Source: a virus. From it: a DNA stretch of 64,000 nt. This document shows positions 11,992 to 42,518 of this stretch, piece after piece. The stretch lies in the IMG/VR virus record IMGVR_UViG_3300045988_144682; one strand, 5' to 3'. A program made the translations under genes and the position numbers. Numbering within the stretch: the first letter of the stretch is position 1; the number at the start of each line of letters is the position of its first letter. Below the pieces are notes generated by a model, which was not told the origin of the DNA, did no database searches, and was given only the letters and a program-made list of their open reading frames with translations.

Positions 11992-12370
11992 GGGGATGAA
12001 ATTGGATTCGATTGGGCATGGAACGGATATAATTCGCAGGAGCGACTACCTAATAGTCAAACTTAAAATAAACGCTGAAGAATTAAGAATGGTAGCGTAA
12101 GCTATATCAGTCTGTGAGATTGGGATATTGGTAACAGGCTGTATTAAGAGCTAATATCCAAAAGGAGAATGTTTTCTCTGTAAGTTGACTCTTCAAAAAA
12201 CAACAGAGTGGTGGACGTTGTAAGAAACCTTTACAAACCCAAAAACGGAGTAGTTACCTGATTCACTGGGGCAACCGTTTTCAAACAAAATGCCCGAATG
12301 AATGGTATTGCGTAAAAGATTATATAATTAGTACGTGTTTAAGACGGGGGTTCGACTCCCCCCATCTCCA
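11992..12370 (+). ncRNA. ssrA: tmRNA (SsrA)-like RNA
   Basis: 5' GGGGATGAAATTGGATTCGA. 3' GGGGGTTCGACTCCCCC-CATCTCC-A. The acceptor GGGGATG/CATCTCC includes a G3:U70 pair. No CCA is encoded. The tag frame is uncertain; the best candidate ends ...NAEELRMVA-TAA at 12098-12100. Confidence 0.75.
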
Positions 12371-12496
12371 CTGTAATAGCTGGTTATTGTTGTTACGGCT
12401 ATTACTAAAAACCTTTCTATCTAAATGGGGCGATGTAAAAATCGTCCCAAATAAAAAAATCACACAACTTTAAACAAACAATAATAAAGAAAATGC

Positions 12497-32530: not shown

Positions 32531-32902
32531 ATGAGAACGAATGATATTTTATTAGACGGATTTAATGATATCCGCACACTTCAAAGATATCTTTATATGT
32601 CAGATGAACATTATATTGAGATAGAAAATGTTATTGGAGTGAAACTGAGAATTAGAATGGGAGAAAACTTACATTATTATTGTAAGAACATGAATTTCCC
32701 AGATTTGCCAGATGCATGTTTTTCGGAATCAATGACGAATAAAACTATGTTAGGTATTATTGACCAGTTGAAAGAGAATCCGGCAACTGAATATCCAAAC
32801 AGTTTTAAGAATAGATGGGATGAGATAGTATCAATAACATCTGCAAACGTAGCTCAGAACGAATATAAATGGGCGAATGGAAGATACAGAGGGAGTGTGT
32901 AA
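32531..32902 (+). CDS. hypothetical protein
   Basis: 123-aa ORF. Confidence 0.55.
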   Translation: MRTNDILLDGFNDIRTLQRYLYMSDEHYIEIENVIGVKLRIRMGENLHYYCKNMNFPDLPDACFSESMTNKTMLGIIDQLKENPATEYPNSFKNRWDEIVSITSANVAQNEYKWANGRYRGSV

Positions 32903-32903
32903 G

Positions 32904-34136
32904 ATGAAAGACATCAAAATGCCAGAAAATGTAAAAATGATTCTTGATAAATTATCAAGTGAAGGGCATGAAGCTGTTATAATTGGTGGTTGCGTGCGTG
33001 ATTCTATCATGGGGATCGAACCGCATGATTGGGATATTGCCACATCTGCCCAACCAGAAGAAATAATGGAATGTTTCAAGAGATATAATCTAATGAAAGC
33101 TGGATTAAAACATGGGACAGTAACCGTTATTATTGACCATGAGCCGTATGAAATCACTACTTACAGAATTGATGGGGAGTATTCAGATCATCGAAGACCT
33201 GATTCTGTTGATTTTACATGTGATTTAGCAGAAGACATTATGCGCCGGGATTTCACAATCAATGCTATCGCATATGACGGAGAAAATATTATTGACTTGC
33301 ATGATGGTATTGGAGATTTGCAGAAAGGGATTATCCGTTGTGTTGGTAATGCAAATACAAGATTCAGAGAAGATCCGCTTAGAATTCTCCGGGCGATTCG
33401 ATTTGCTGCACGATTTGGCTTTGAGATTGAAGAATTAACTAAAAAAGCAATGTTTGATAATTGTGATATGTTGCGACTCATTGCAACGGAGAGAAGACAG
33501 AGTGAATTTACAAAAACACTTTGCAGTGAGCATGTCAGTATCATCAAGGATTATGCTAAAATACTGAAATATGGTTTACCATGTATTGACAGCATTAAGG
33601 ATTTTGATAAGGCAGTACGTGCAATAGAAATGTGCCAGGATATCAGTGAAAAATTGGCAATTTTGATTGACGGATTATCATTATCAGAGTATAATAAAGC
33701 TGTTAAAGCAATTTTGACAGGAATGAGATATCCGAATAAAGTAATTGTATCTGTTCAAAATATTTTTGCTGCAAAGAAAATGGTAATTACTAACTCAGAT
33801 GCGTGTATCAAAAATATGTTGTACAAGTTTTCACTGGAAGATGTGAAACATATTTTAAGATATAAACACGCTAAAATAAATGCAAGTGATAATATAAATA
33901 AAGAAACACTTGAAAAAGTAGAGGATATGATTGAACGTGCAGAAGAATTGGCTGAATCAGATGAATGCTACAACTTAAAAGGTCTTGCAATTAACGGAAA
34001 TGATTTAAAACGCCTGGGAGTGAAAGATCTTGACATTAAGTGGATGTTAGATGGACTGTTAAAATTAGTAACCACAAATCAAGTAGAAAATTCGAGGGAC
34101 GTATTGATCGAGGTGGCAAAAATTTCCATGTTATAA
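32904..34136 (+). CDS. cca: CCA-adding tRNA nucleotidyltransferase
   Basis: ATG at 32904 after GAGGGAG. IIGGCVRDSIMG..PHDWDIAT (head domain), TYR.DG.Y.DHR, RRDFTINA, DPLRILRAIRFAARF. Confidence 0.88.
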   Translation: MKDIKMPENVKMILDKLSSEGHEAVIIGGCVRDSIMGIEPHDWDIATSAQPEEIMECFKRYNLMKAGLKHGTVTVIIDHEPYEITTYRIDGEYSDHRRPDSVDFTCDLAEDIMRRDFTINAIAYDGENIIDLHDGIGDLQKGIIRCVGNANTRFREDPLRILRAIRFAARFGFEIEELTKKAMFDNCDMLRLIATERRQSEFTKTLCSEHVSIIKDYAKILKYGLPCIDSIKDFDKAVRAIEMCQDISEKLAILIDGLSLSEYNKAVKAILTGMRYPNKVIVSVQNIFAAKKMVITNSDACIKNMLYKFSLEDVKHILRYKHAKINASDNINKETLEKVEDMIERAEELAESDECYNLKGLAINGNDLKRLGVKDLDIKWMLDGLLKLVTTNQVENSRDVLIEVAKISML

Positions 34137-36893: not shown

Positions 36894-36970
36894 GGAAAGG
36901 CGAGACTGGGATCTCGCCAAAACCTTGCGATAAACAACCGAAAATAAATGAAAAAACTTTTAAAAACCTA

Positions 36971-36998
36971 TTGACATTTTCCTGAAATATGGTATTAT
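36971..36998 (+). promoter_or_regulatory. sigA-type promoter driving the RNA array
   Basis: TTGACA at 36971-36976, 16-nt spacer, TGgTATTAT at 36990-36998. Confidence 0.6.
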
Positions 36999-37024
36999 AT
37001 AATTGTTCAAAGGAACAGAGAAAA

Positions 37025-37082
37025 ACACTGGAAAAGCTAATAAGGTAGCTTAAGAAAATAGGTTCGATTCCTAATCCATGTG
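37025..37082 (+). ncRNA. D-armless mini tRNA-like element (unit 0)
   Basis: Hand fold. Acceptor ACA(C)TGGA/TCCATGT has one bulge. Single hairpin AAGCT-AATAAGGT-AGCTT. T arm (A)TAGG-TTCGATT-CCTA(A). Confidence 0.35.
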
Positions 37083-37085
37083 ATC

Positions 37086-37152
37086 GACATTTCGGGGCTT
37101 ATCTCCGTGAAAAAGTTGTGTTTGTTTGTAGAACGGACAACTCCGAAATGTC
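37086..37152 (+). ncRNA. long imperfect hairpin RNA
   Basis: GACATTTCGGGG at 37086-37097 pairs with CTCCGAAATGTC at 37141-37152. An inner TCCGT/ACGGA helix is present. Confidence 0.35.
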
Positions 37153-37186
37153 TTTAAAAATAATATAAACAAGCAATAATAAATGA

Positions 37187-37304
37187 GCTGATGTAGTTCA
37201 ACTGGTAGAACATTTGATTATGAAAAATGCACTTCGTACAATAAGTGCTAACAGCAATAGCAAAGCCACTCAAACAGTTGTTGGTTCGAGTCCAACCGTC
37301 AGCA
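37187..37304 (+). tRNA. tRNA-scaffold gene with 52-nt anticodon-loop region (unit A)
   Basis: Acceptor GCTGATG/CGTCAGC. D arm GTTC-AACTGGTA-GAAC. Stem TTTGA (37213-17) / TCAAA (37270-74). Variable CAGTT. T arm GTTGG-TTCGAGT-CCAAC. The insert holds hairpin GCACTT/AAGTGC followed by ACAGCAAT (37251-58). Confidence 0.55.
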
Positions 37305-37425
37305 TTCGGCAGAAATGCCATAAATGTATGAGAAAGACACATGCAGCAAATTCAAAAGGATAAAGCAAAACTCTACAAGTTTAGTGAAGTGGTTCAAATC
37401 CACAAAAATGAAGTGTCTTGAAAAT
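37305..37425 (+). ncRNA. structured RNA, paralog of the 40246-40330 element (unit B)
   Basis: CAGAAATGCC (37310-19). AAGACAC (37334-40) followed by AT-GCAGCAAAT. An AAACT-CTACA-AGTTT hairpin. T-arm-like GTGG-TTCAAAT-CCAC. GTGTCTT (37413-19) is complementary to AAGACAC. Confidence 0.4.
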
Positions 37426-37433
37426 GTGAATAT

Positions 37434-37549
37434 GGGAGTGATCCGGCGGTGCTTTTTAAGGCGCATCGGGTGGAGAGCGCATACAGCAATTTTACATAAA
37501 AGGAAACTCTTCAAAAGTTTTAGTTACGGTTCGACTCCGTACACTCCCA
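37434..37549 (+). tRNA. tRNA-like gene with intact UCA anticodon arm and extra sequence around the D arm (unit C)
   Basis: Acceptor GGGAGTG/CACTCCC. D-arm-like GCGC-ATCGGGTGGAGA-GCGC (37461-80) followed by AT-ACAGCAAT. Anticodon arm AAACT-CTTCAAA-AGTTT (37504-20, anticodon TCA at 37511-13). T arm TACGG-TTCGACT-CCGTA. Confidence 0.55.
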
Positions 37550-37570
37550 CAATTCCACCAATTAAAAAAT

Positions 37571-37706
37571 GGGTAAGTGGCGAAATAGGCACACGCAACG
37601 GCAATTTTTATACACATGTGTTTAGTTGACAAACACATACAGCAATTTATTTAAGTAGAAGAAATCAGGAAGCCGTGTCTTGCAGGTTCGAGTCCTGTCT
37701 TACCCG
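37571..37706 (+). tRNA. tRNA-scaffold gene with 69-nt anticodon-loop region (unit D)
   Basis: Acceptor GGGTAAG/CTTACCC. Leu-like D arm TG-GCG-AAATAGGCACA-CGC. Stem ACGGC (37598-602) / GCCGT (37672-76). T arm GCAGG-TTCGAGT-CCTGT. Insert hairpin ATGTGTTT-AGTTGAC-AAACACAT followed by ACAGCAAT (37639-46). Confidence 0.55.
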
Positions 37707-37862
37707 TTAGCACCATGAAAGTATGCAACTTTGTTTAGTTGGAAATGAAAGAATATCGCACCACAAGAATCGTATGTTTTGTGTGATTAAATGTAGCGAA
37801 AAGGTATCGTGAAAGGCTAATCCATTGGAGGTCGTGCATGGCTTCGCTTTATGGTGCAACCA

Positions 37863-37936
37863 GGATCATTAGCTCAGTTGGTTAGAGCATCCGGCTCATA
37901 ACCGGGCGGTCACTGGTTCGAGTCCAGTATGATCCA
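37863..37936 (+). tRNA. tRNA with CAT anticodon (Met, or Ile2 if lysidinylated)
   Basis: Canonical cloverleaf GGATCAT-TA-GCTC-AGTTGGTTA-GAGC-A-TCCGG-CTCATAA-CCGGG-CGGTC-ACTGG-TTCGAGT-CCAGT-ATGATCC-A. No CCA is encoded. Confidence 0.9.
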
Positions 37937-38068
37937 TTTGAGCAATTTCAAACGCTCAACATTTTGATTTTTGTAGCTTGGTTTTAGCGAAAGCTGTGGA
38001 AACTATCTGTAAAATAGGGAGATAGTGTGTCTCATATGTGAGGTTTGTATGAGAAAAATTAAATATTT

Positions 38069-38194
38069 GCCACCGTAGCTCAACTAGATAGAGCAACGTA
38101 AATCGAAAAACGTGTCTAGTATTAGACACAGACAGCAATTTTTCAAGATAGCATGTTAAGCCGTAGGTTATAGGTTCGACTCCTATCGGTGGCG
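38069..38194 (+). tRNA. tRNA-scaffold gene with about 74 nt replacing the anticodon arm (unit F)
   Basis: Acceptor GCCACCG/CGGTGGC. D arm GCTC-AACTAGATA-GAGC. T arm ATAGG-TTCGACT-CCTAT. Internal hairpin GTGTCT-AGTATT-AGACAC followed by AG-ACAGCAAT (38132-39). No clean anticodon stem found. Confidence 0.5.
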
Positions 38195-38197
38195 TTG

Positions 38198-38332
38198 GCG
38201 AGAGTATGCAAGAGGCTTAAGCAAATGATACAAAAATGTGCTTAGTTCTAGCACACACAGCAAAATTCTCAGAAGAAAACATTGATTCAAAATTGTAAGT
38301 TGAATTCGTGGGTTCAAATCCCACCTCTCGCC
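38198..38332 (+). tRNA. class-II-like tRNA-scaffold gene with insert (unit G)
   Basis: Acceptor GCGAGAG/CTCTCGC. Ser/Leu-like D arm TGC-AAGAGGCTTAA-GCA. T arm GTGGG-TTCAAAT-CCCAC. Long arm ATTCAA-AATTGTAAG-TTGAAT. Hairpin GTGCT-TAGTTCT-AGCAC followed by AC-ACAGCAAA (38257-64). Confidence 0.5.
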
Positions 38333-38333
38333 C

Positions 38334-38418
38334 TGGTGAAATGGTAATGGATTAGAATGGCAGCAATTCATATAGTTCCCCTGTAAAAACAAGGTTGCCA
38401 CTGATTCTTGCCACACCA
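38334..38418 (+). ncRNA. small structured RNA without T arm (unit H)
   Basis: TGGTG (38334-38) / CACCA (38414-18) closing helix. Contains CAGCAAT (38361-67). Has GGCAG/TTGCC internal pairing. Confidence 0.3.
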
Positions 38419-38421
38419 TAA

Positions 38422-38557
38422 GCGTATGTAGCTCAGTAGGTTAGAGCGTCCACAAAAATTTTATAGAGCCTTGTATAAGGCTTGAACCGCAAATATTTTT
38501 AAAGAATTTGAAATTGAGGAAGGTGGAAGGTCACAAGTTCAAGTCTTGTCATACGCA
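38422..38557 (+). tRNA. tRNA-scaffold gene with 69-nt anticodon-loop region (unit I)
   Basis: Acceptor GCGTATG/CATACGC. D arm GCTC-AGTAGGTTA-GAGC. Stem TCCAC (38449-53) / GTGGA (38523-27). Variable AGGTC. T arm ACAAG-TTCAAGT-CTTGT. Insert hairpin AGCCTT-GTAT-AAGGCT followed by TGAA-CCGCAAAT. Confidence 0.55.
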
Positions 38558-38651
38558 CTTATTCTAATTTTTATATACTTACAGCATAATCAAACAATAA
38601 TAAAGTATGTAGGAATTATGAAATATAATTCAAAATTAGGAGGAATTGAAC

Positions 38652-40205
38652 ATGGGTTTCATGAATTCAATGAAAAGTACGTTGAATGAAGATTTCAACG
38701 AAAGCTACACAGAAAACGGCGCACTTGGATATAGAACAACAGGTAAACACTTGCTTGATTTGAATTTCAAGGTCGCATCTCTGAGAAAAGCTGATGCAGA
38801 AACAATCATTTCTGGATTCGATAAAGCGTTTTCAGAAGACCATATTCACGCACTCAAATGGTTATTCTATTTGCGTGATGCGAGAGAAGGTCTGGGGGAA
38901 CGTAGATCATTCAGAATCATCATGTCTCATTTGGCAAATGTTGAGCCGGAAATCAGTAAAGTGCTGATTGGTTTAATCGCTGAATACGGACGTAGTGATG
39001 ATCTTCTCTCCCTGTTAGGTACAGAGTGTGAAAAAGACACACTGGAACTTATCAAAAATCAGCTAATGAAAGATTTAGAAGCAAAAAAAGCGAACAAACC
39101 AGTATCATTGTTTGCTAAGTGGTTGCCAAGTTGTAATGCAACTTCCCACAAAACAAGAGAAAATGCTGCAGTAATTCGTAAGTATTTGGGATTCACAGAA
39201 AGACAATATCGTAAGATTCTTTCGGAACTGAGAGAGTATATTGATGTTGTTGAAAGAAAGATGTCTGCTAAGAAATGGGGCGAAATCAATTACGAAGCCG
39301 TTCCGTCAAAAGCAAATCTTATTTACAACAATGCATTCCTCAAAAACGATGAGGAACGCAGACGAGAGTATCTGGATAAGCTGGAAAAGGGAGAGGCGAA
39401 AATCAACTCTTCTACAAACTTCCCACATGATATCGTACATAGTTATCTGAAAGGTCGTAGCTATTACAGATCCAATATAAAAGAGAACAAAGCTCTGGAA
39501 GCATTATGGAAAGCACTTCCTGATACAGTACAGGGTGATGGAAATACTCTTGTTGTCAGAGATGGTTCTGGAAGTATGATGTGTAGTGTTGATCCAAACA
39601 GCAGCATTACTGCACTGGAAGTCGCAACAGCACTTGCTATTTACTTCTCTGAGAGATGTTCTGGCGAATTCAAAGATAACTTTATCACATTCAGTTCAAG
39701 ACCTGAGTTGATTGATCTTTCAGCGTGTAGTTCACTGGCAGAAAAAATCAGAAGATGTTATGCAGAAAATGACTGTTCTAACACAGACATTGAAAAAACA
39801 TTTGATCTTATTCTGCAGACAGCTATCAATACTAATATGAAACAGGAAGACATGCCAAAGAATATCCTGATTATCAGTGATATGGAATTTGACCAGGCAA
39901 CCTATTCATATGGATGGGGAGGTAGCGCAAGCACAGTAAATGAAACACTGTTCAAGACAATTGGCAGAAAATTTGAGAAAGCTGGATATCAGCTTCCGAG
40001 ACTTGTGTTCTGGAATGTAAACTCACGTACCGGCACAATCCCTGTCAAGGAAAACGCTTTGGGTGTTGCTCTTGTAAGTGGATTCTCAGTCAATGTTGCG
40101 AAAATGGTATTAAGCGGAGAACTTGATCCGTATAAATGTCTGATTGAGCAGCTTGACACAGAGAGATATGCACCGATTGAGGCAGCAATCAAAGATTTAA
40201 AATAA
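38652..40205 (+). CDS. vWA-domain protein of the DUF2828 / TROVE (Ro60)-like architecture
   Basis: ATG at 38652 after AGGAGGA. A helical N-terminal about 300 aa beginning ..YTENGALGY.TTGK.LLDLNF. C-terminal vWA with MIDAS VVRDGSGSM and ISDMEFD. The family assignment is from memory. Confidence 0.6.
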   Translation: MGFMNSMKSTLNEDFNESYTENGALGYRTTGKHLLDLNFKVASLRKADAETIISGFDKAFSEDHIHALKWLFYLRDAREGLGERRSFRIIMSHLANVEPEISKVLIGLIAEYGRSDDLLSLLGTECEKDTLELIKNQLMKDLEAKKANKPVSLFAKWLPSCNATSHKTRENAAVIRKYLGFTERQYRKILSELREYIDVVERKMSAKKWGEINYEAVPSKANLIYNNAFLKNDEERRREYLDKLEKGEAKINSSTNFPHDIVHSYLKGRSYYRSNIKENKALEALWKALPDTVQGDGNTLVVRDGSGSMMCSVDPNSSITALEVATALAIYFSERCSGEFKDNFITFSSRPELIDLSACSSLAEKIRRCYAENDCSNTDIEKTFDLILQTAINTNMKQEDMPKNILIISDMEFDQATYSYGWGGSASTVNETLFKTIGRKFEKAGYQLPRLVFWNVNSRTGTIPVKENALGVALVSGFSVNVAKMVLSGELDPYKCLIEQLDTERYAPIEAAIKDLK

Positions 40206-40245
40206 AACAACTTCATACGTGGCAAAACAACCAAAGTAAAAAGTA

Positions 40246-40330
40246 CAGAAATGCCTTGTAAGACACGTACAGCAAATAATAATGCAATCAACTTTTAATT
40301 GATAACCGCAAACTAAGTGTCTTGAAGAAC
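40246..40330 (+). ncRNA. structured RNA, paralog of unit B (unit J)
   Basis: CAGAAATGCC (40246-55). AAGACAC (40260-66) followed by GT-ACAGCAAAT (40269-77). Inner hairpin ATCAA-CTTTTAA-TTGAT. GTGTCTT (40317-23) followed by GAAG. Followed by a strong terminator. Confidence 0.45.
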
Positions 40331-40422: not shown

Positions 40423-41517
40423 ATGAGAAAGTTAGCAACAATTCGTGAAATCGCAGAAATCAAGCCGATTCCTGATGCTGACAGAATCGAAGTAGCAAGA
40501 ATTGATGGTTGGGAAGTTGTCGTGTCAAAGAAAGACAATTTTCATGTTGGCGATAGAGTGGTATATGTCGAGATTGACAGTAAGATGCCGGAAACGCCAG
40601 AGTATGAATTCTTGAAATCAAGAAAGTATGTTGTAAAGACTATCGTAATGAGAGGACAGGTTTCACAAGGATTAGTGATGCCGTTATCCATTCTTCCGGT
40701 AGGTGAATACAAACTTGGTCAGGATGTTACGGATGTCTTAGGAATCATTAAGTATGATCCACAGCTTGAAGAAGAAAATGCGGTTTTCGAGGAAAACAGA
40801 AAGAAAACCAGGAATCCAGTTGTGAAATTTTTAATGAGATATGCATGGTTCAGAAAAATCTATCTCAAGAAGAATACGCACACAGAGTTTCCAAACTTTA
40901 TTAAAAAGACAGATGAAGAAAGAATTCAGAATATGCCTGAGTTATACGAAAGGCTGAAGAATGAACAAACCAATCTGATAGTGACAGAAAAAGTTGACGG
41001 ATGTTCCGGCACTTATTTTTTACGCAAAATTCCGAGAAAATTCGGAAAAGCGAAGTACGAATTCGGAGTTTGCAGCAGAAATAGGAGATTGCCACAGCCG
41101 GATAACAGCTACTATTGGAAAATCGCCAACAAATACAAAATTCGCAGCGTTCTTGAAAAATTGATAGACGATGAGGATTATATAGTATTACAAGGCGAAA
41201 TTACTGGTGCAAAAATCCAGGGAAACAAATATCATGAGAAAGATTGCCAGTTATGGGCATTCAACCTCATAGCCCCCTCAAAGAAATATAATACCATTGA
41301 GATGCAAGACATTCTCATTAAGCATGGTATTCATACAGTACCAATTGTTGAGATTGGTTACAATGTAAAAGGTGATATACAAGATATTGTAAAGTATGTG
41401 AAAGGCAAGTCACAAATTGTAGATAGGGAAAGAGAAGGATGTGTTTTTAGAAATACTGATAAGAATATCAGTTTCAAATGTATTAACCCAAACTTCTTAA
41501 TCAAGAATAATGAGTAG
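40423..41517 (+). CDS. ATP-dependent RNA ligase (Rnl5/DraRnl-like, N-terminal OB-type extension)
   Basis: 364 aa. The N-terminus MRKLATIREI.EIKPIPDADRIEVA.IDGW.VV is typical of this ligase clade. Nucleotidyl-lysine motif TEKVDG. Confidence 0.72.
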   Translation: MRKLATIREIAEIKPIPDADRIEVARIDGWEVVVSKKDNFHVGDRVVYVEIDSKMPETPEYEFLKSRKYVVKTIVMRGQVSQGLVMPLSILPVGEYKLGQDVTDVLGIIKYDPQLEEENAVFEENRKKTRNPVVKFLMRYAWFRKIYLKKNTHTEFPNFIKKTDEERIQNMPELYERLKNEQTNLIVTEKVDGCSGTYFLRKIPRKFGKAKYEFGVCSRNRRLPQPDNSYYWKIANKYKIRSVLEKLIDDEDYIVLQGEITGAKIQGNKYHEKDCQLWAFNLIAPSKKYNTIEMQDILIKHGIHTVPIVEIGYNVKGDIQDIVKYVKGKSQIVDREREGCVFRNTDKNISFKCINPNFLIKNNE

Positions 41518-41612: not shown

Positions 41613-42518
41613 ATGGGAAGGGAAATGAGAATGGATCGGAGCAGTATTGGTACGAGAATGAAATCTTATGAAGATGCTCAGAAAACGTACTTAACAAGAA
41701 GAATGCCAGTAATGATTAGAGTGGATGGAAATGCTTTTCATACATTCACCAGAGGTTTTGAAAGACCTTTTGACAGCATTATGGCAGAATCAATGCAGCG
41801 CACAATGAAATATATGTGCGAAAACATTTCTGGATGTGTCTTAGGATATACACAGAGCGATGAAATCACATTACTTCTGATTGATTACAAGAAAAAGAAT
41901 CAGGGAGCATGGTTTGGATATGTAAAGCGAAAGGTAGAAACTATCGCAGCGAGTATGGCAACAATGGCTTTCAATGAGGCTTTTTCAGATGTAATTACGG
42001 AAAAGATATCAGAAGACATTATGAAAGTTCAGAATGATGAAGAAGCCGAAAAAGTAAAGGATTACTATTTCAAATATGTAAAGAAATGTGGAAGGGCAAT
42101 GTTTGATGCTAGAGCATTTAATATCCCAGAATTTGAAGTAGTCAATGAATTTATTTGGAGGCAGCAGGATTGTACAAGAAATTCAATTCAGTCAGTTGGT
42201 CATGCAAATTTTTCAGATAAGAAAATGCATAAGAAAAATATGAGTCAGATTCAAGACATGCTCATGTTGAAGAAAGGAATCAACTGGAATGATTTTCCGA
42301 CTTTTCTGAAAAGAGGATCTTGTTGTATCAAAGAAGATTATTTCATTCCAGAAAATGAGCTTCCAGAAAATCACAGAAACAATTTATCCCCACGGACATT
42401 AGATCCAGAAGAAGATGAATATGGTGTGTGGAGATCACGTTGGGTTATCGACAAAGAAATTCCAATTTTCACACAGAACAAAAACTATGTTAATAATTTG
42501 TTTTTAAACAAGTATTAA
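41613..42518 (+). CDS. Thg1-like protein (tRNA 3'-5' nucleotidyltransferase/5'-end repair)
   Basis: 301 aa. RMKSYE....YL.RRMPVMIRVDGNAFHTFTRGFERPFD and GYTQSDEITLLL. The start may be the ATG at 41631. Confidence 0.82.
   Translation: MGREMRMDRSSIGTRMKSYEDAQKTYLTRRMPVMIRVDGNAFHTFTRGFERPFDSIMAESMQRTMKYMCENISGCVLGYTQSDEITLLLIDYKKKNQGAWFGYVKRKVETIAASMATMAFNEAFSDVITEKISEDIMKVQNDEEAEKVKDYYFKYVKKCGRAMFDARAFNIPEFEVVNEFIWRQQDCTRNSIQSVGHANFSDKKMHKKNMSQIQDMLMLKKGINWNDFPTFLKRGSCCIKEDYFIPENELPENHRNNLSPRTLDPEEDEYGVWRSRWVIDKEIPIFTQNKNYVNNLFLNKY

What the first reader, a model, noticed from the sequence alone, without database searches (positions are those of the whole stretch)
36971..38560. Array of tRNA-scaffold genes carrying 45-70-nt inserts that share a covarying hairpin + ACAGCAAT module
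Downstream of the promoter at 36971 I hand-folded ten tRNA-related units. Only one is a normal tRNA (37863-37936, anticodon CAT, 74 nt).

Six others have perfect 7-bp acceptor stems, canonical T arms (GGTTCGAnTCC / GGTTCAAnTCC type) and mostly canonical D arms, yet are 116-136 nt long:
- A (37187-37304): TTTGA/TCAAA closes 52 nt instead of a 7-nt loop.
- D (37571-37706): ACGGC/GCCGT closes 69 nt.
- I (38422-38557): TCCAC/GTGGA closes 69 nt.
- G (38198-38332): about 52 nt closed by a 4-bp stem.
- F (38069-38194): about 74 nt where the anticodon arm should be.
- C (37434-37549): about 20 extra nt before and about 23 after a D-arm-like hairpin.

The inserts are otherwise unrelated in sequence but share one module. 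It is a 4-8-bp hairpin whose two strands covary (GCACTT/AAGTGC, ATGTGTTT/AAACACAT, GTGTCT/AGACAC, GTGCT/AGCAC, GCGC/GCGC, AGCCTT/AAGGCT). After 0-4 nt comes ACAGCAAT (variants ACAGCAAA, GCAGCAAA, CCGCAAAT), then an A/T-rich tail.

The inserts are far too short for group I introns. I could not restore a standard U33-containing 7-nt anticodon loop by removing one contiguous block, so they are not obviously classical introns.

Possible explanations:
- a new kind of protein-dependent tRNA intron or split tRNA, re-joined by the phage RNA ligase;
- embedded small ribozymes;
- tRNA scaffolds that display a protein-binding RNA module, for example decoys for anticodon nucleases or ligands for the adjacent Ro-like protein.

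No unit encodes CCA, which matches the phage cca gene.
Basis: seen in the sequence. Interest (0 to 1): 0.9.

Follow-up and report, generated by a model that had tools for sequence, protein, structure and literature searches.

The report
Phage Ro-like protein's tRNA-shaped partner RNAs
A row of tRNA look-alike genes beside a phage Ro60-like gene all carry the same hairpin-plus-ACAGCAAU tag, which is most likely that protein's docking site, so they look like a widespread, apparently undescribed branch of "Y RNA" particles, not broken tRNAs or ribozymes; true intron status is unsettled for some units.

Summary
Rfam's tRNA model matches units A, I and F end to end around inserts of 49-69 nt. A covariance model of "hairpin + ACAGCAAW" finds six copies in the array and a seventh downstream of the next gene.

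That gene (38646-40205, DUF2828/DUF7788) folds like Ro60, with a TROVE ring and a vWA domain. In 71 loci chosen by this protein alone, ACAGCAAW occurs 317 times on the gene strand and 11 times on the other. The tag was present next to the gene in all seven cultured phages inspected, including Felix O1.

The tag is a helix (..GYGYCUU / AAGRCRC) followed by 0-3 nt and ACAGCAAW. The helix can be a closed hairpin inside a tRNA anticodon arm. It can also be an open stem enclosing permuted tRNA-like bodies (sub-threshold Rfam YrlA hits), bare anticodon-stem-loop mimics, or nothing.

About half of the tagged tRNA bodies regain a perfect anticodon arm when one block is deleted; unit F becomes tRNA-Asn(GUU). 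The other half cannot (D and I).

Best reading: these are Y-RNA-like ligands of a Ro60 paralog, a new variant of a known kind. Protein-assisted excision of the restorable half is not excluded.

The parts
36971..36998 (+). Promoter-like site (TTGACA, 16 nt, TG-TATTAT) at the head of the array
   Evidence: 11 of 12 consensus matches with a TG extension. This is a consensus match only.
37187..37304 (+). Unit A: tRNA-like body with the module in the anticodon loop. Helix P is 37229-37234 / 37243-37248 and ACAGCAAU is 37251-37258.
   Evidence: Rfam tRNA 57.8 bits, model 1-71, 49-nt insert. R1 hit 34.0 bits. Close relatives carry a 23-26-nt indel in the P loop. Deleting 45 nt between positions 33 and 34 gives an ARAGORN tRNA-Gly(GCC), but the boundary is ambiguous.
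37334..37420 (+). Unit B: open-stem small RNA. AAGACAC (37334-37340), AU, then GCAGCAAA (37343-37350). A mini-hairpin and a T-arm-like hairpin follow. GUGUCUU (37413-37419) closes the stem.
   Evidence: Sequence. The minimum-free-energy fold pairs 37334-40 with 37413-19 and forms the T-arm hairpin. The same architecture is common in related loci.
37434..37549 (+). Unit C: tRNA-like body with the module (ACAGCAAU 37483-37490) between a D-like region and an intact anticodon arm, AAACU-CUUCAAA-AGUUU (37504-37520, anticodon UCA).
   Evidence: R1 hit 19.3 bits. Partial Rfam tRNA hit 23.8 bits. Restoration and fold.
37571..37706 (+). Unit D: tRNA-like body with a class-II-like D arm. The module replaces the anticodon loop. 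P is 37616-37623 / 37631-37638, ACAGCAAU is 37639-37646, and the tail ends in ..UCAGGAA.
   Evidence: R1 hit 30.0 bits. ARAGORN intron mode. Not restorable to a U33 loop. A homologue is present in L141.
37863..37936 (+). Ordinary tRNA-Met(CAU), the only canonical tRNA in the array
   Evidence: 71 bits.
38069..38194 (+). Unit F: tRNA-Asn(GUU) body with a 52-nt module (38099-38150) between positions 29 and 30 of the anticodon stem. P is 38112-38118 / 38123-38129 and ACAGCAAU is 38132-38139.
   Evidence: Rfam tRNA 44.6 bits. R1 45.5 bits. A single deletion gives ACGGC-AUGUUAA-GCCGU and a 74-nt ARAGORN tRNA-Asn.
38198..38332 (+). Unit G: tRNA-like body with the module between the D arm and an anticodon-arm-like hairpin. 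P is 38237-38242 / 38250-38255, ACAGCAAA is 38257-38264, and the hairpin at 38287-38303 has loop AUUGUAA.
   Evidence: R1 37.4 bits. ARAGORN intron mode. Only 4 of 5 stem pairs form after deletion.
38352..38410 (+). Unit H: weak open-stem unit. ..AGAAU-G-GCAGCAAU (38360-38367) ... AUUCU-UG.
   Evidence: Sequence and fold. The closing stem is only 5 bp, so confidence is low.
38422..38557 (+). Unit I: tRNA-like body in which the module replaces the anticodon loop. P is 38466-38472 / 38477-38483, the variant motif ACCGCAAA is 38486-38493, and the tail ends in ..UUGAGGAAG.
   Evidence: Rfam tRNA 53.8 bits with a 69-nt insert. R1 28.9 bits. Not restorable.
38575..38608 (+). Degenerate module in the 5' UTR of the Ro-like gene: AUACUU-ACAGCAUA-...-AAGUAU, followed by GUAGGAAU.
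   Evidence: Read. The equivalent hairpin in L141 covaries (AUACAU / AUGUAU). Cargo-free modules lie in the 5' UTR in L176, L201, L213 and Vibrio phage phi-ST2.
38646..40205 (+). Ro60-like protein (DUF2828 + DUF7788): a TROVE-type helical ring plus a vWA domain with an intact D-x-S-x-S motif
   Evidence: Pfam. PHROG 850 'RNA-binding protein'. AlphaFold model with pLDDT 75.8. The top Foldseek PDB hits, aligned over about 525-590 columns, are Ro60/TROVE structures 9KOP, 9L5Y and 1YVR, E 1e-8 to 5e-5. D306, S308 and S310 are invariant.
40260..40324 (+). Unit J: open-stem small RNA that displays an anticodon-stem-loop mimic. AAGACAC (40260-40266), GU, ACAGCAAA (40269-40276), then AUCAA-CUUUUAA-UUGAU (40287-40303, Lys UUU). 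GUGUCUU (40317-40323) closes the stem.
   Evidence: R1 hit 19.1 bits. Sequence and fold. The same type lies next to the gene in L158, L161, L168, L174 and L194.
40423..41517 (+). RNA ligase (PHA02142 OB fold + RNA_ligase domain). A neighbour, not shown to act on these RNAs.
   Evidence: Homologues lie downstream of the Ro-like gene in 17 of 71 related loci.
41613..42518 (+). Thg1-like 3'-5' nucleotidyltransferase (neighbour)
32877..34136 (+). CCA-adding enzyme (neighbour). This fits the lack of encoded CCA in the units.

Best explanation
The array encodes Y-RNA-like partner RNAs of the adjacent Ro60-like (TROVE + vWA) protein.

Every unit carries one handle. It is a 6-8-bp helix P with strands ..GYGYCUU(G) and (A)AAGRCRC. 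The second strand runs on, after 0-3 nt, into single-stranded ACAGCAAW. An A-rich linker often precedes the helix.

I infer that this helix-plus-single-strand element is the docking site of the Ro-like ring. It would play the role of the stem plus GNCGAA/CGAA bulge that canonical Ro60 recognises in YrlA and Yrl RNAs.

The handle is fused to tRNA-shaped cargo. In this window it is mostly a closed hairpin inside the anticodon arm of otherwise normal-order tRNA bodies (A, C, D, F, G, I). In units B and J it is an open stem that encloses a T-arm fragment or a Lys(UUU) anticodon-stem-loop mimic.

The resulting particles would present tRNA or anticodon-loop shapes to tRNA-recognising enzymes. Candidates are the neighbouring ligase, Thg1-like and CCA enzymes, host PNPase, or host anticodon nucleases. 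Copies in the gene's own 5' UTR would give feedback control.

Shown: the module, its covarying helix, its strand-specific linkage to the gene family, the Ro60 fold, and the range of topologies. Inferred: direct binding, a stable particle rather than excision, and what the cargo does.
For: 1. Linkage. ORF clustering in loci picked by the RNA motif alone gives the DUF2828 protein as the top family, in 36 loci. Conversely, in 71 loci picked by the protein alone, ACAGCAAW occurs 317 times on the gene strand against 11 on the other (chance is about 11). In 68 of the 71 it lies within 600 nt of the gene. This repeats in bacterial genome contigs: 134 against 17, in 61 of 80 loci.
2. Breadth. 711 cultured phages carry the protein. 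The module sits next to the gene in all seven inspected: Felix O1, LeBron, MrDarsey, EFGrKN, LMTA-57, S-CoN_Ph10 and phi-ST2.
3. Protein fold. The top structural matches, aligned over about 525-590 columns, are Ro60/TROVE. The best are from Thermus phage phiLo Ro60. That protein is shown experimentally to bind Y-like RNAs encoded upstream of its gene through a stem-bulge CGAA motif (PMC12135203).
4. RNA-level helix. 134 of 185 distinct sites have a perfect 7-bp partner, against 40-54 in controls. There are 103 distinct helices and all seven pairs vary.
5. Cargo that cannot become a tRNA. 64 of 127 distinct tagged tRNA bodies cannot regain an anticodon loop. 37 of 94 small open-stem RNAs carry only an anticodon-stem-loop mimic, against 2.6% of shuffles. 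Cargo-free hairpins lie in the gene's 5' UTR, and in phi-ST2 the module overlaps the Shine-Dalgarno sequence and AUG.
6. Resemblance to YrlA. Permuted units in EFGrKN and LeBron align to Rfam YrlA over the whole model at 36-48 bits. YrlA genes likewise lie on the Ro gene's strand within 4 kb (PMC4201824).
7. No avoidance of ordinary tRNAs. Tagged tRNAs share an anticodon with an ordinary tRNA in the same locus as often as chance predicts, 5 observed against 5.2 expected.
Against: - No binding, expression or processing data exist for any of these RNAs.
- The motif ACAGCAAW is not the GNCGAAN0-1G/CGAA motif, and no unit reaches Rfam's YrlA gathering score.
- The window's own units are in normal tRNA order, unlike YrlA.
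- Half of the tagged tRNA bodies keep exon halves that rejoin into a flawless 5-bp stem and 7-nt loop with U33 and a purine at 37: 34 of 61, against 1-2% in controls. The insertion point clusters at 28/29-29/30. That is what one expects of a real intron.
- Permuted tRNA genes such as L060 and the neighbouring RNA ligase also fit a cut-and-rejoin pathway.
- The anticodon-overlap test rests on only 16 cases.
Confidence: 0.6

Rival explanations
1. The modules are true protein-dependent introns or processing elements. The Ro-like protein binds the module. Nucleases remove it up to the exon-exon helix. A nick-sealing RNA ligase then rejoins the anticodon stem, which yields functional tRNAs. The permuted genes would pass through a circular intermediate.
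For: - Deleting one block restores a perfect anticodon arm in 34 of 61 parsed units, against 1.0-1.8% in controls, and in 63 of 127 distinct bodies.
- The insertion point is usually 28/29 or 29/30, which would leave a nick inside a duplex.
- Unit F becomes a canonical tRNA-Asn.
- Permuted tRNA genes split exactly in the P loop exist: L060, L040 and L099.
- In L109 the module halves flank a complete tRNA-Gly.
- An RNA ligase lies downstream in 17 of 71 loci, and an annotated 'tRNA-splicing ligase' gene lies about 1.3 kb away in LMTA-57.
- Lak megaphage tRNAs were reported to carry 'enigmatic introns' (PMC6784885).
Against: - It cannot explain the 64 non-restorable bodies, which include window units D and I, nor the small RNAs that carry only an anticodon stem-loop, nor the cargo-free 5' UTR hairpins.
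- No endonuclease is conserved near the module.
- Distances from the module to the junctions vary: 5-13 nt on the 5' side and 4-15 nt on the 3' side.
- There is no bulge-helix-bulge motif.
- The module is retained in tRNA-Asn across phages whose Ro-like proteins are only 55-97% identical, which suggests it is selected for itself.
- Ordinary tRNAs with the same anticodon coexist in the same arrays: L115, L132 and L048.
- The spliced junction of unit F is absent from IMG/VR and JGI metagenome contigs. This is only a weak negative.
Confidence: 0.22
2. The insert is a small self-cleaving or self-splicing ribozyme embedded in tRNA genes.
For: There is a conserved 8-nt single-stranded motif next to a helix. 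Units are tens of nucleotides long, like small ribozymes. There is no positive tool evidence.
Against: - No Rfam ribozyme family matches, even at E <= 10.
- The only conserved features are one helix and one octamer.
- Junction distances vary.
- There is no conserved G at the 3' end of the insert and no conserved U at its 5' junction (sequences).
- The same element occurs without any exons.
- The tight linkage to a protein gene points to protein recognition.
Confidence: 0.03
3. The units are decayed pseudo-tRNAs, or the shared motif is a chance or repeat-derived similarity with no function.
For: ARAGORN in default mode ignores them. Several, such as H and the stretch 37000-37186, are hard to fold.
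Against: - The motif is 30-fold enriched on one strand across 71 independent loci.
- The helix covaries.
- The module is conserved from Firmicutes gut phages to Felix O1, mycobacteriophages and Vibrio T4-like phages.
- The tRNA bodies keep full-length Rfam scores of 45-58 bits.
Confidence: 0.01
4. The element acts at the level of DNA or transcription. It could be an intrinsic terminator for antisense transcripts, a promoter-associated sequence, or a mobile miniature element that targets tRNA genes.
For: On the minus strand the P hairpins, followed by the complement of the A-rich linker, score as terminator-like sites at 38130-38111, 38256-38236 and 37248-37229. Many open-stem units start a few bases after a TATAAT box.
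Against: - ACAGCAAW is strand-specific and co-oriented with the gene.
- Open-stem forms have no hairpin at all on the DNA.
- The inserts share no terminal repeats and nothing beyond the module.
- G-U pairs are tolerated in P, which points to RNA pairing.
Confidence: 0.03

Closest known systems
Bacterial and phage Ro60-Y RNA particles, especially YrlA (Rfam RF02553) and the Yrl1/Yrl2 RNAs of Thermus phage phiLo
   Same: - A Ro60-fold protein (TROVE ring + vWA domain) is encoded next to, and on the same strand as, several small RNAs.
- The RNAs combine a stem and an adjacent short conserved single-stranded motif with a domain that mimics tRNA.
- Permuted relatives show the YrlA order: T arm, closed acceptor stem, D arm.
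- RNA-repair genes (a ligase) lie nearby, as I recall for the Salmonella rsr-yrlBA-rtcBA operon; the papers found concern that RtcB/RtcA repair operon.
Sources.
   Different: - The protein belongs to the DUF2828/DUF7788 family, not Pfam TROVE.
- The motif is ACAGCAAW 3' of a helix strand, not GNCGAAN0-1G/CGAA.
- No unit reaches the YrlA gathering score.
- In this window the handle is a closed hairpin inside the anticodon arm of normal-order tRNA bodies with open acceptor ends.
- Many units keep a complete, canonical anticodon stem-loop, or consist of little else.
- Arrays hold up to about ten units.
Archaeal and eukaryal tRNA introns, split tRNAs and permuted tRNA genes processed through the bulge-helix-bulge motif (from my own knowledge)
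   Same: - Short inserts (40-70 nt) sit at several positions in tRNA genes.
- Their removal restores a canonical anticodon arm in about half of the cases.
- Permuted genes exist with the 3' half upstream of the 5' half.
- Module halves can flank a complete tRNA.
Sources.
   Different: - No bulge-helix-bulge motif can be drawn. The start of the insert does not pair with the start of exon 2 (sequences).
- No splicing endonuclease was recognised nearby.
- Half of the units are not restorable.
- The conserved element is a helix plus an octamer, and it is linked to a Ro-like gene.
'Enigmatic introns' reported in Lak megaphage tRNAs (Devoto et al. 2019, PMC6784885)
   Same: These are phage tRNA genes that are longer than normal, and they were read as intron-containing by running eukaryote-mode tRNA prediction.
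   Different: I could not check whether the Lak inserts carry the P helix and ACAGCAAW. That paper describes neither a motif nor a protein partner.
Group I introns in bacterial tRNA anticodon loops
   Same: They interrupt the anticodon region of bacterial-type tRNA genes.
   Different: They are roughly 200 nt or longer, with a conserved catalytic core (my own knowledge). Here the inserts are 40-70 nt, Rfam gives no intron hit, and there is no conserved terminal G.

Membership tests
Ro60-Y RNA particle (YrlA / Yrl type) | A Ro60-type protein (helical TROVE ring + vWA domain) is encoded beside the RNA genes | tested here: met
   The AlphaFold model matches 9KOP, 9L5Y, 1YVR and 2I91 over about 525-590 aligned columns, E 1e-8 to 5e-5, TM about 0.43-0.54. 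The D-x-S-x-S motif of the vWA domain is invariant. Pfam itself calls only DUF2828 and DUF7788.
Ro60-Y RNA particle (YrlA / Yrl type) | RNA genes lie within a few kb of the Ro gene and on the same strand | tested here: met
   317 same-strand against 11 opposite-strand motifs in 71 protein-selected loci, with 68 of 71 within 600 nt. 134 against 17 in genome contigs.
Ro60-Y RNA particle (YrlA / Yrl type) | The conserved Ro-binding motif GNCGAAN0-1G (CGAA) in or next to the 5' strand of a stem | tested here: not met
   The conserved element is ACAGCAAW, 0-3 nt 3' of helix strand AAGRCRC. It is analogous in position but not the same sequence.
Ro60-Y RNA particle (YrlA / Yrl type) | A match to Rfam RF02553 at the gathering score (69 bits) | tested here: not met
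   The window gives no hit at E <= 10. Permuted relatives score 35.7-47.8 bits over the full model.
Ro60-Y RNA particle (YrlA / Yrl type) | A tRNA-like domain with T arm, closed acceptor stem-loop and D arm, with the RNA ends in the Ro-binding stem | tested here: inconclusive
   Met in relatives: L060, EFGrKN, LeBron and Felix O1. Not met by window units A, C, D, F, G and I, which have normal order and open acceptor ends. B and J do have their ends in the stem, but they carry only tRNA fragments.
Ro60-Y RNA particle (YrlA / Yrl type) | Physical binding of the RNA by the Ro protein | not testable with these tools
   This needs co-purification or gel-shift experiments.
tRNA (Rfam RF00005), functional decoder | Full cloverleaf with a 7-bp acceptor stem, D arm and T arm | tested here: met
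   A, I and F pass the gathering score over model 1-71. 127 distinct tagged bodies with 7/7 acceptor pairing occur in related loci.
tRNA (Rfam RF00005), functional decoder | A contiguous 5-bp anticodon stem and 7-nt loop with U33 and a purine at 37, as transcribed or after removing one block | tested here: inconclusive
   Met after one deletion for F and C, and perhaps A. Not met for D and I, and only 4 of 5 pairs for G. Overall 63 of 127 are restorable.
Bulge-helix-bulge tRNA introns | A bulge-helix-bulge (or relaxed) motif at both exon-intron junctions | tested here: not met
   Inspection of 18 units with unambiguous junctions shows that the insert's 5' end (UAAAAU.., AAAGA..) is not complementary to the start of exon 2. 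No formal bulge-helix-bulge scanner was run.
Bulge-helix-bulge tRNA introns | A splicing endonuclease of the EndA/Sen family is present | not tested
   Pfam and PHROG scans of neighbouring ORFs found none, but the whole genome was not surveyed.
Group I intron or small self-cleaving ribozymes | A match to a curated catalytic-RNA family | tested here: not met
   Rfam 15 scan of 36900-38700 at E <= 10 lists only tRNA and clearly spurious weak hits.

The most novel reading that the evidence does not exclude
A third route of tRNA splicing, operating in bacterial viruses. A Ro60-like ring would recognise the helix-ACAGCAAW handle. The insert would be trimmed back to the anticodon-stem duplex, and a nick-sealing RNA ligase would close it. 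This would mature both intron-containing and circularly permuted phage tRNA genes without a bulge-helix-bulge motif or a ribozyme.

An equally unexcluded sister reading: the particles are a library of anticodon-loop decoys (Lys, Ser, Pro, Asn and others) that soak up host anticodon nucleases, and the neighbouring ligase reseals them.
Probability: 0.2. Interest if true: 0.9.

Novelty: new variant of a known kind. Interest (0 to 1): 0.72.

Why it matters
Ro60-Y RNA particles are studied in animals, a few bacteria and one Thermus phage. What their tRNA-like domains do is still open.

This finding points to a second, much larger branch. The Ro60 paralog occurs in at least 711 cultured phages and thousands of metagenomic sequences. 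It appears to have its own recognition tag, and its partner RNAs come in arrays.

These partner RNAs include complete tRNA bodies with genuine anticodon arms and small RNAs that display only an anticodon stem-loop. That ties the Ro system directly to anticodon-specific biology: tRNA repair, anticodon nucleases and phage-host conflict.

It also explains why phage tRNA arrays contain overlong "tRNAs" that standard predictors skip or label as intron-containing.

The system is present in workable models: Felix O1 in Salmonella, A511-type Listeria phages, Staphylococcus phages and mycobacteriophage LeBron. The binding, processing and function questions can therefore be tested directly.

Tried and rejected
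- GenBank phage DNA search (blastn) with the array: only the tRNA-Met matched.
- Literature searches for tRNA introns in phages, ACAGCAA, DUF2828, TROVE and Ro-like: none describes this motif. Useful context came from PMC6784885, PMC4201824 and PMC12135203.
- ARAGORN intron mode and an exhaustive ARAGORN scan of single deletions: ARAGORN is too permissive to fix splice sites or anticodons. I used a stricter test instead: 5 bp + U33 + purine 37, with shuffled and truncated controls.
- First covariation count on the seed alignment: it is strong but circular, because the seeds were chosen for having a hairpin. I replaced it with a test on sites chosen by protein linkage only. Its controls are still high (22-29%) because the search windows are wide.
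- First module-tRNA census: a one-base error in my T-arm pattern made it fail. It was corrected.
- My automatic open/closed classifier mislabels some units, including window A and G, because it prefers long distant pairings. I used it only for bulk counts and checked the sequences by eye.
- Bulge-helix-bulge intron, group I intron and known small ribozymes: rejected.
- Search for an intron-less allele or cDNA of unit F by its exact spliced junction in IMG/VR and JGI metagenomes: nothing found.
- Search for a conserved endonuclease near the module: only homing-type GIY-YIG, HNH and PD-(D/E)XK genes, in a minority of loci.
- Not resolved: the stretches 37000-37186, 37707-37862 and 37937-38068.

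Full report

Yes. ARAGORN and Rfam find a single ordinary tRNA in the stretch, tRNA-Met(CAU) at 37863-37936. Rfam's tRNA model also aligns end to end (positions 1-71) to three much longer segments:
- 37187-37304 (57.8 bits, 49-nt insert),
- 38422-38557 (53.8 bits, 69-nt insert),
- 38069-38194 (44.6 bits, 63-nt insert).

All three inserts lie in the anticodon arm. ARAGORN in intron mode adds D and G.

Five of the eight ACAGCAAW sites in the 64-kb window fall in this 1.4-kb stretch, all on the + strand. I built a covariance model from 30 hairpin + ACAGCAAW examples (R1). It finds six copies in the array, with E from 1.6e-9 to 0.03, and a seventh at 40241-40282, beyond the next gene.

The promoter-like site at 36971 matches 11 of 12 consensus positions. 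None of the units is followed by CCA.

**2. The module is widespread and tied to one protein family**

The array has no close relative in GenBank phages.

I clustered all ORFs in those RNA-selected loci. The largest cluster by far, present in 36 loci, is the homologue of window gene 38646-40205. The motif lies beside that gene on the same strand.

I then ran the reverse, unbiased test. In 71 loci selected only by the protein (55-68% identity), ACAGCAAW occurs 317 times on the gene strand of the flanks and 11 times on the other strand, where chance predicts about 11. In 68 of the 71 loci a copy lies within 600 nt of the gene.

The result repeats in bacterial genome and MAG contigs, mostly gut Lachnospiraceae and Oscillospiraceae: 134 against 17, in 61 of 80 loci.

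The protein is found in 711 cultured phages. I inspected seven and found the module next to the gene in every one:
- Salmonella phage Felix O1
- mycobacteriophage LeBron, where the gene is annotated "Ro-like RNA binding protein"
- Bacillus phage MrDarsey
- Enterococcus phage EFGrKN
- Listeria phage LMTA-57
- Staphylococcus phage S-CoN_Ph10
- Vibrio phage phi-ST2

**3. The protein is a Ro60 paralog**

Pfam sees only DUF2828 and DUF7788. PHROGs calls it an RNA-binding protein.

An AlphaFold model (pLDDT 75.8) has Ro60/TROVE structures as its seven best PDB matches, aligned over about 525-590 columns. These include 9KOP and 9L5Y (Ro60 of Thermus phage phiLo), Xenopus Ro60 (1YVR, 1YVP, 2I91) and the Ro60 cryo-EM entries 9NFA and 9NEP, with E from 1e-8 to 5e-5. 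After these come isolated vWA domains. The D-x-S-x-S metal-site motif of the vWA domain is invariant.

**4. Anatomy of the module**

Comparing about 100 distinct examples gives one consensus: a helix P with strands X = ..GYGYCUU(G) and Y = (A)AAGRCRC. Y continues after 0-3 nt into ACAGCAAW, and X is usually preceded by an A-rich linker.

The helix covaries. In sites chosen by protein linkage alone, 134 of 185 have a perfect 7-bp partner, against 40-54 for reversed, complemented or shuffled controls. There are 103 different helices, and every pair position varies.

The far end of the helix (CUU-G...A-AAG) can be closed by a short loop or left open. Among near-identical phages, the loop of unit A gains or loses 23-26 nt.

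This yields several topologies:
- (i) A closed hairpin replaces the anticodon loop of a tRNA body (window D and I, probably A). 64 of 127 distinct tagged bodies are of this non-restorable kind.
- (ii) A closed hairpin interrupts the 5' strand of the anticodon stem (mostly 28/29 or 29/30) or sits between the D arm and the anticodon arm, leaving a complete anticodon arm (window F, C, G).
- (iii) An open stem forms from the two ends of a small RNA. It encloses:
  - a permuted tRNA-like body (L060, L040, L099, EFGrKN, LeBron, Felix O1),
  - a T-arm fragment (window B),
  - or a bare anticodon-stem-loop mimic (window J, loop CUUUUAA). 37 of 94 distinct small RNAs have such a mimic, against 2.6% of shuffles. 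The commonest anticodon triplets are UUU, UGA, UGG and CAU.
- (iv) The module has no cargo and lies in the 5' UTR of the Ro-like gene (L176, L201, L213). In phi-ST2 it overlaps the Shine-Dalgarno sequence and the start codon.
- (v) The module halves flank a complete tRNA (L109).

Minimum-free-energy folds of the window units agree with these assignments.

**5. Are they introns?**

I took this seriously. After deleting one contiguous block, 34 of 61 parsed units regain a 5-bp stem and a 7-nt loop with U33 and a purine at 37. Shuffled and truncated controls give 1.8% and 1.0%. In well-formed tRNAs the cut falls after 2-3 nt of the stem.

Window F becomes ACGGC-AUGUUAA-GCCGU, a 74-nt tRNA-Asn(GUU). 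Asn(GUU) is the commonest restorable type, 23 of 59. The permuted genes and a neighbouring RNA ligase also fit a cut-and-rejoin pathway. From my own knowledge, ligases of this family seal nicks in duplex RNA, which would suit a cut inside a stem.

Several points count against a pure intron model:
- Half of the bodies cannot be restored.
- The stem-loop-only and cargo-free forms have nothing to splice.
- No bulge-helix-bulge motif, ribozyme family or conserved endonuclease is present.
- Junction distances vary.
- The module is retained in the same tRNA across distant phages.
- Tagged tRNAs coexist with ordinary tRNAs of the same anticodon as often as chance predicts: 5 observed against 5.2 expected, n = 16.
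- The spliced junction of F is absent from IMG/VR and JGI contigs. This is a weak negative.

**6. Comparison with what is known**

Bacterial and phage Ro60 proteins bind Y RNAs that are encoded within a few kb on the same strand. YrlA combines a stem bearing GNCGAAN0-1G with a tRNA-like domain in the order T arm, closed acceptor stem, D arm (PMC4201824).

Thermus phage phiLo Ro60 provides the best structural matches to the window protein. It binds two upstream Y-like RNAs through a stem-bulge CGAA motif and recruits host PNPase (PMC12135203).

The permuted units next to the DUF2828 gene in EFGrKN and LeBron align to Rfam YrlA over the whole model at 36-48 bits, below the 69-bit gathering score.

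The system therefore works like Ro60-Y RNA, but it fails two membership tests: the motif sequence and the Rfam threshold. It also adds new features:
- a different protein family,
- a different tag,
- closed-hairpin insertion into normal-order tRNA bodies,
- display of genuine anticodon arms,
- large arrays.

None of the ten literature searches, nor Rfam 15, returned a description of the tag.

**7. Most likely mechanism**

Best-supported model (confidence about 0.6): helix P plus single-stranded ACAGCAAW is the docking site of the Ro-like ring. Each RNA tethers a tRNA-shaped or anticodon-loop-shaped cargo to it. Copies in the gene's own leader give feedback control.

Binding is inferred from linkage, topology and analogy. 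It has not been shown.

What the cargo does is open. It may recruit the neighbouring ligase, Thg1-like and CCA enzymes or host PNPase. It may also act as bait for host anticodon nucleases. From my own knowledge, PrrC-type nucleases target tRNA-Lys(UUU), one of the most frequently displayed loops.

The main rival (about 0.22) is that the restorable half is matured into working tRNAs by Ro-assisted excision and ligation. The two models are not exclusive.

**8. Verdict**

This is a real, strongly non-random feature. It is a new variant of a known kind: Y-RNA-like partners of a Ro60 paralog.

Noticed in passing
window 11992-12371 (+): The phage encodes a tmRNA with tag peptide AEELRMVA* (ARAGORN; Rfam 80.2 bits). 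It adds to the RNA-centred gene set in the window: CCA enzyme, Ro-like protein, RNA ligase and Thg1-like protein.
   Followed up: no
window 37504-37520 (unit C): The intact anticodon arm of unit C has the loop CUUCAAA, so its anticodon is UCA, which would read UGA. ORFs in this part of the window look normal under code 11, so recoding is not evident. I did not test the whole window.
   Followed up: no
window 37235-37242 compared with L002, L003, L005-L012: Near-identical phages (97% protein identity) differ by a 23-26-nt insertion in the loop of unit A's P hairpin. The top of the helix therefore tolerates extra sequence.
   Followed up: partly
window 37680-37686 and 38523-38530; L141, L022, L131, L201; phi-ST2 (L301 about 1975-1985): A purine-rich AGGAA / UGAGGAA element recurs at the 3' end of the insert, just before the 3' strand of the anticodon stem (units D and I). 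It also occurs in the loop of cargo-free hairpins. In phi-ST2 it coincides with the gene's Shine-Dalgarno sequence. It may be a second recognition element.
   Followed up: partly
L301 (Vibrio phage phi-ST2) 1957-1995: The only module near the gene pairs GACAUU with AAUGUC, and the latter contains the start codon of the Ro-like gene. The ribosome-binding site lies in the enclosed loop. This looks like a translational autoregulation operator.
   Followed up: partly
L141 about 1930-2000 (locus coordinates; from the upstream block shown): A tRNA-like gene, GCGAAUAUAGCUCAGUUGGUUAGAGCAUCCG-UGAG-CGGAUGGUC.., has its anticodon loop replaced by a 4-nt loop and carries no module. It is another non-decoding tRNA mimic in the same kind of array.
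   Followed up: no
L141-L214 flanks (for example L209 2805-3905): A NifS/IscS-like cysteine desulfurase gene lies near the Ro-like gene in 19 of 71 loci, downstream in 17 of them, which hints at tRNA thiolation. My label comes from reading the sequence; I did not run it through Pfam. An SPFH/band-7-like protein occurs in 22 loci.
   Followed up: no
window 38130-38111, 38256-38236, 37248-37229 (minus strand): Read on the minus strand, the P hairpins and the complement of the A-rich linker score as intrinsic-terminator-like sites. This is probably a by-product of the A-rich linker.
   Followed up: partly
window 37000-37186, 37707-37862, 37937-38068: These stretches of the array remain unassigned. 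They contain a T-arm-like hairpin (UAGGUUCGAUUCCUA, about 37058-37072), a long 10-bp-stem hairpin (about 37086-37152) and an AAGCAAU variant at about 37171. They may hold further degenerate units.
   Followed up: no
L295 (Felix O1, AF320576.1 about 23.86-25.0 kb): The gaps between annotated tRNAs in the classic Felix O1 array hold four module-bearing RNAs with helix AGACCNN / NNGGUCU. One is a permuted tRNA-like unit. Several annotated small ORFs (ORF91, 92, 94) overlap these RNAs and the tRNAs and are probably spurious.
   Followed up: partly
L299 (Listeria phage LMTA-57) 4841-5509: A gene annotated 'tRNA-splicing ligase' lies about 1.3 kb downstream of the DUF2828 gene. As I recall, the Salmonella rsr-yrlBA-rtcBA operon pairs Ro60 and Y RNA genes with the RtcB ligase in the same way.
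   Followed up: no
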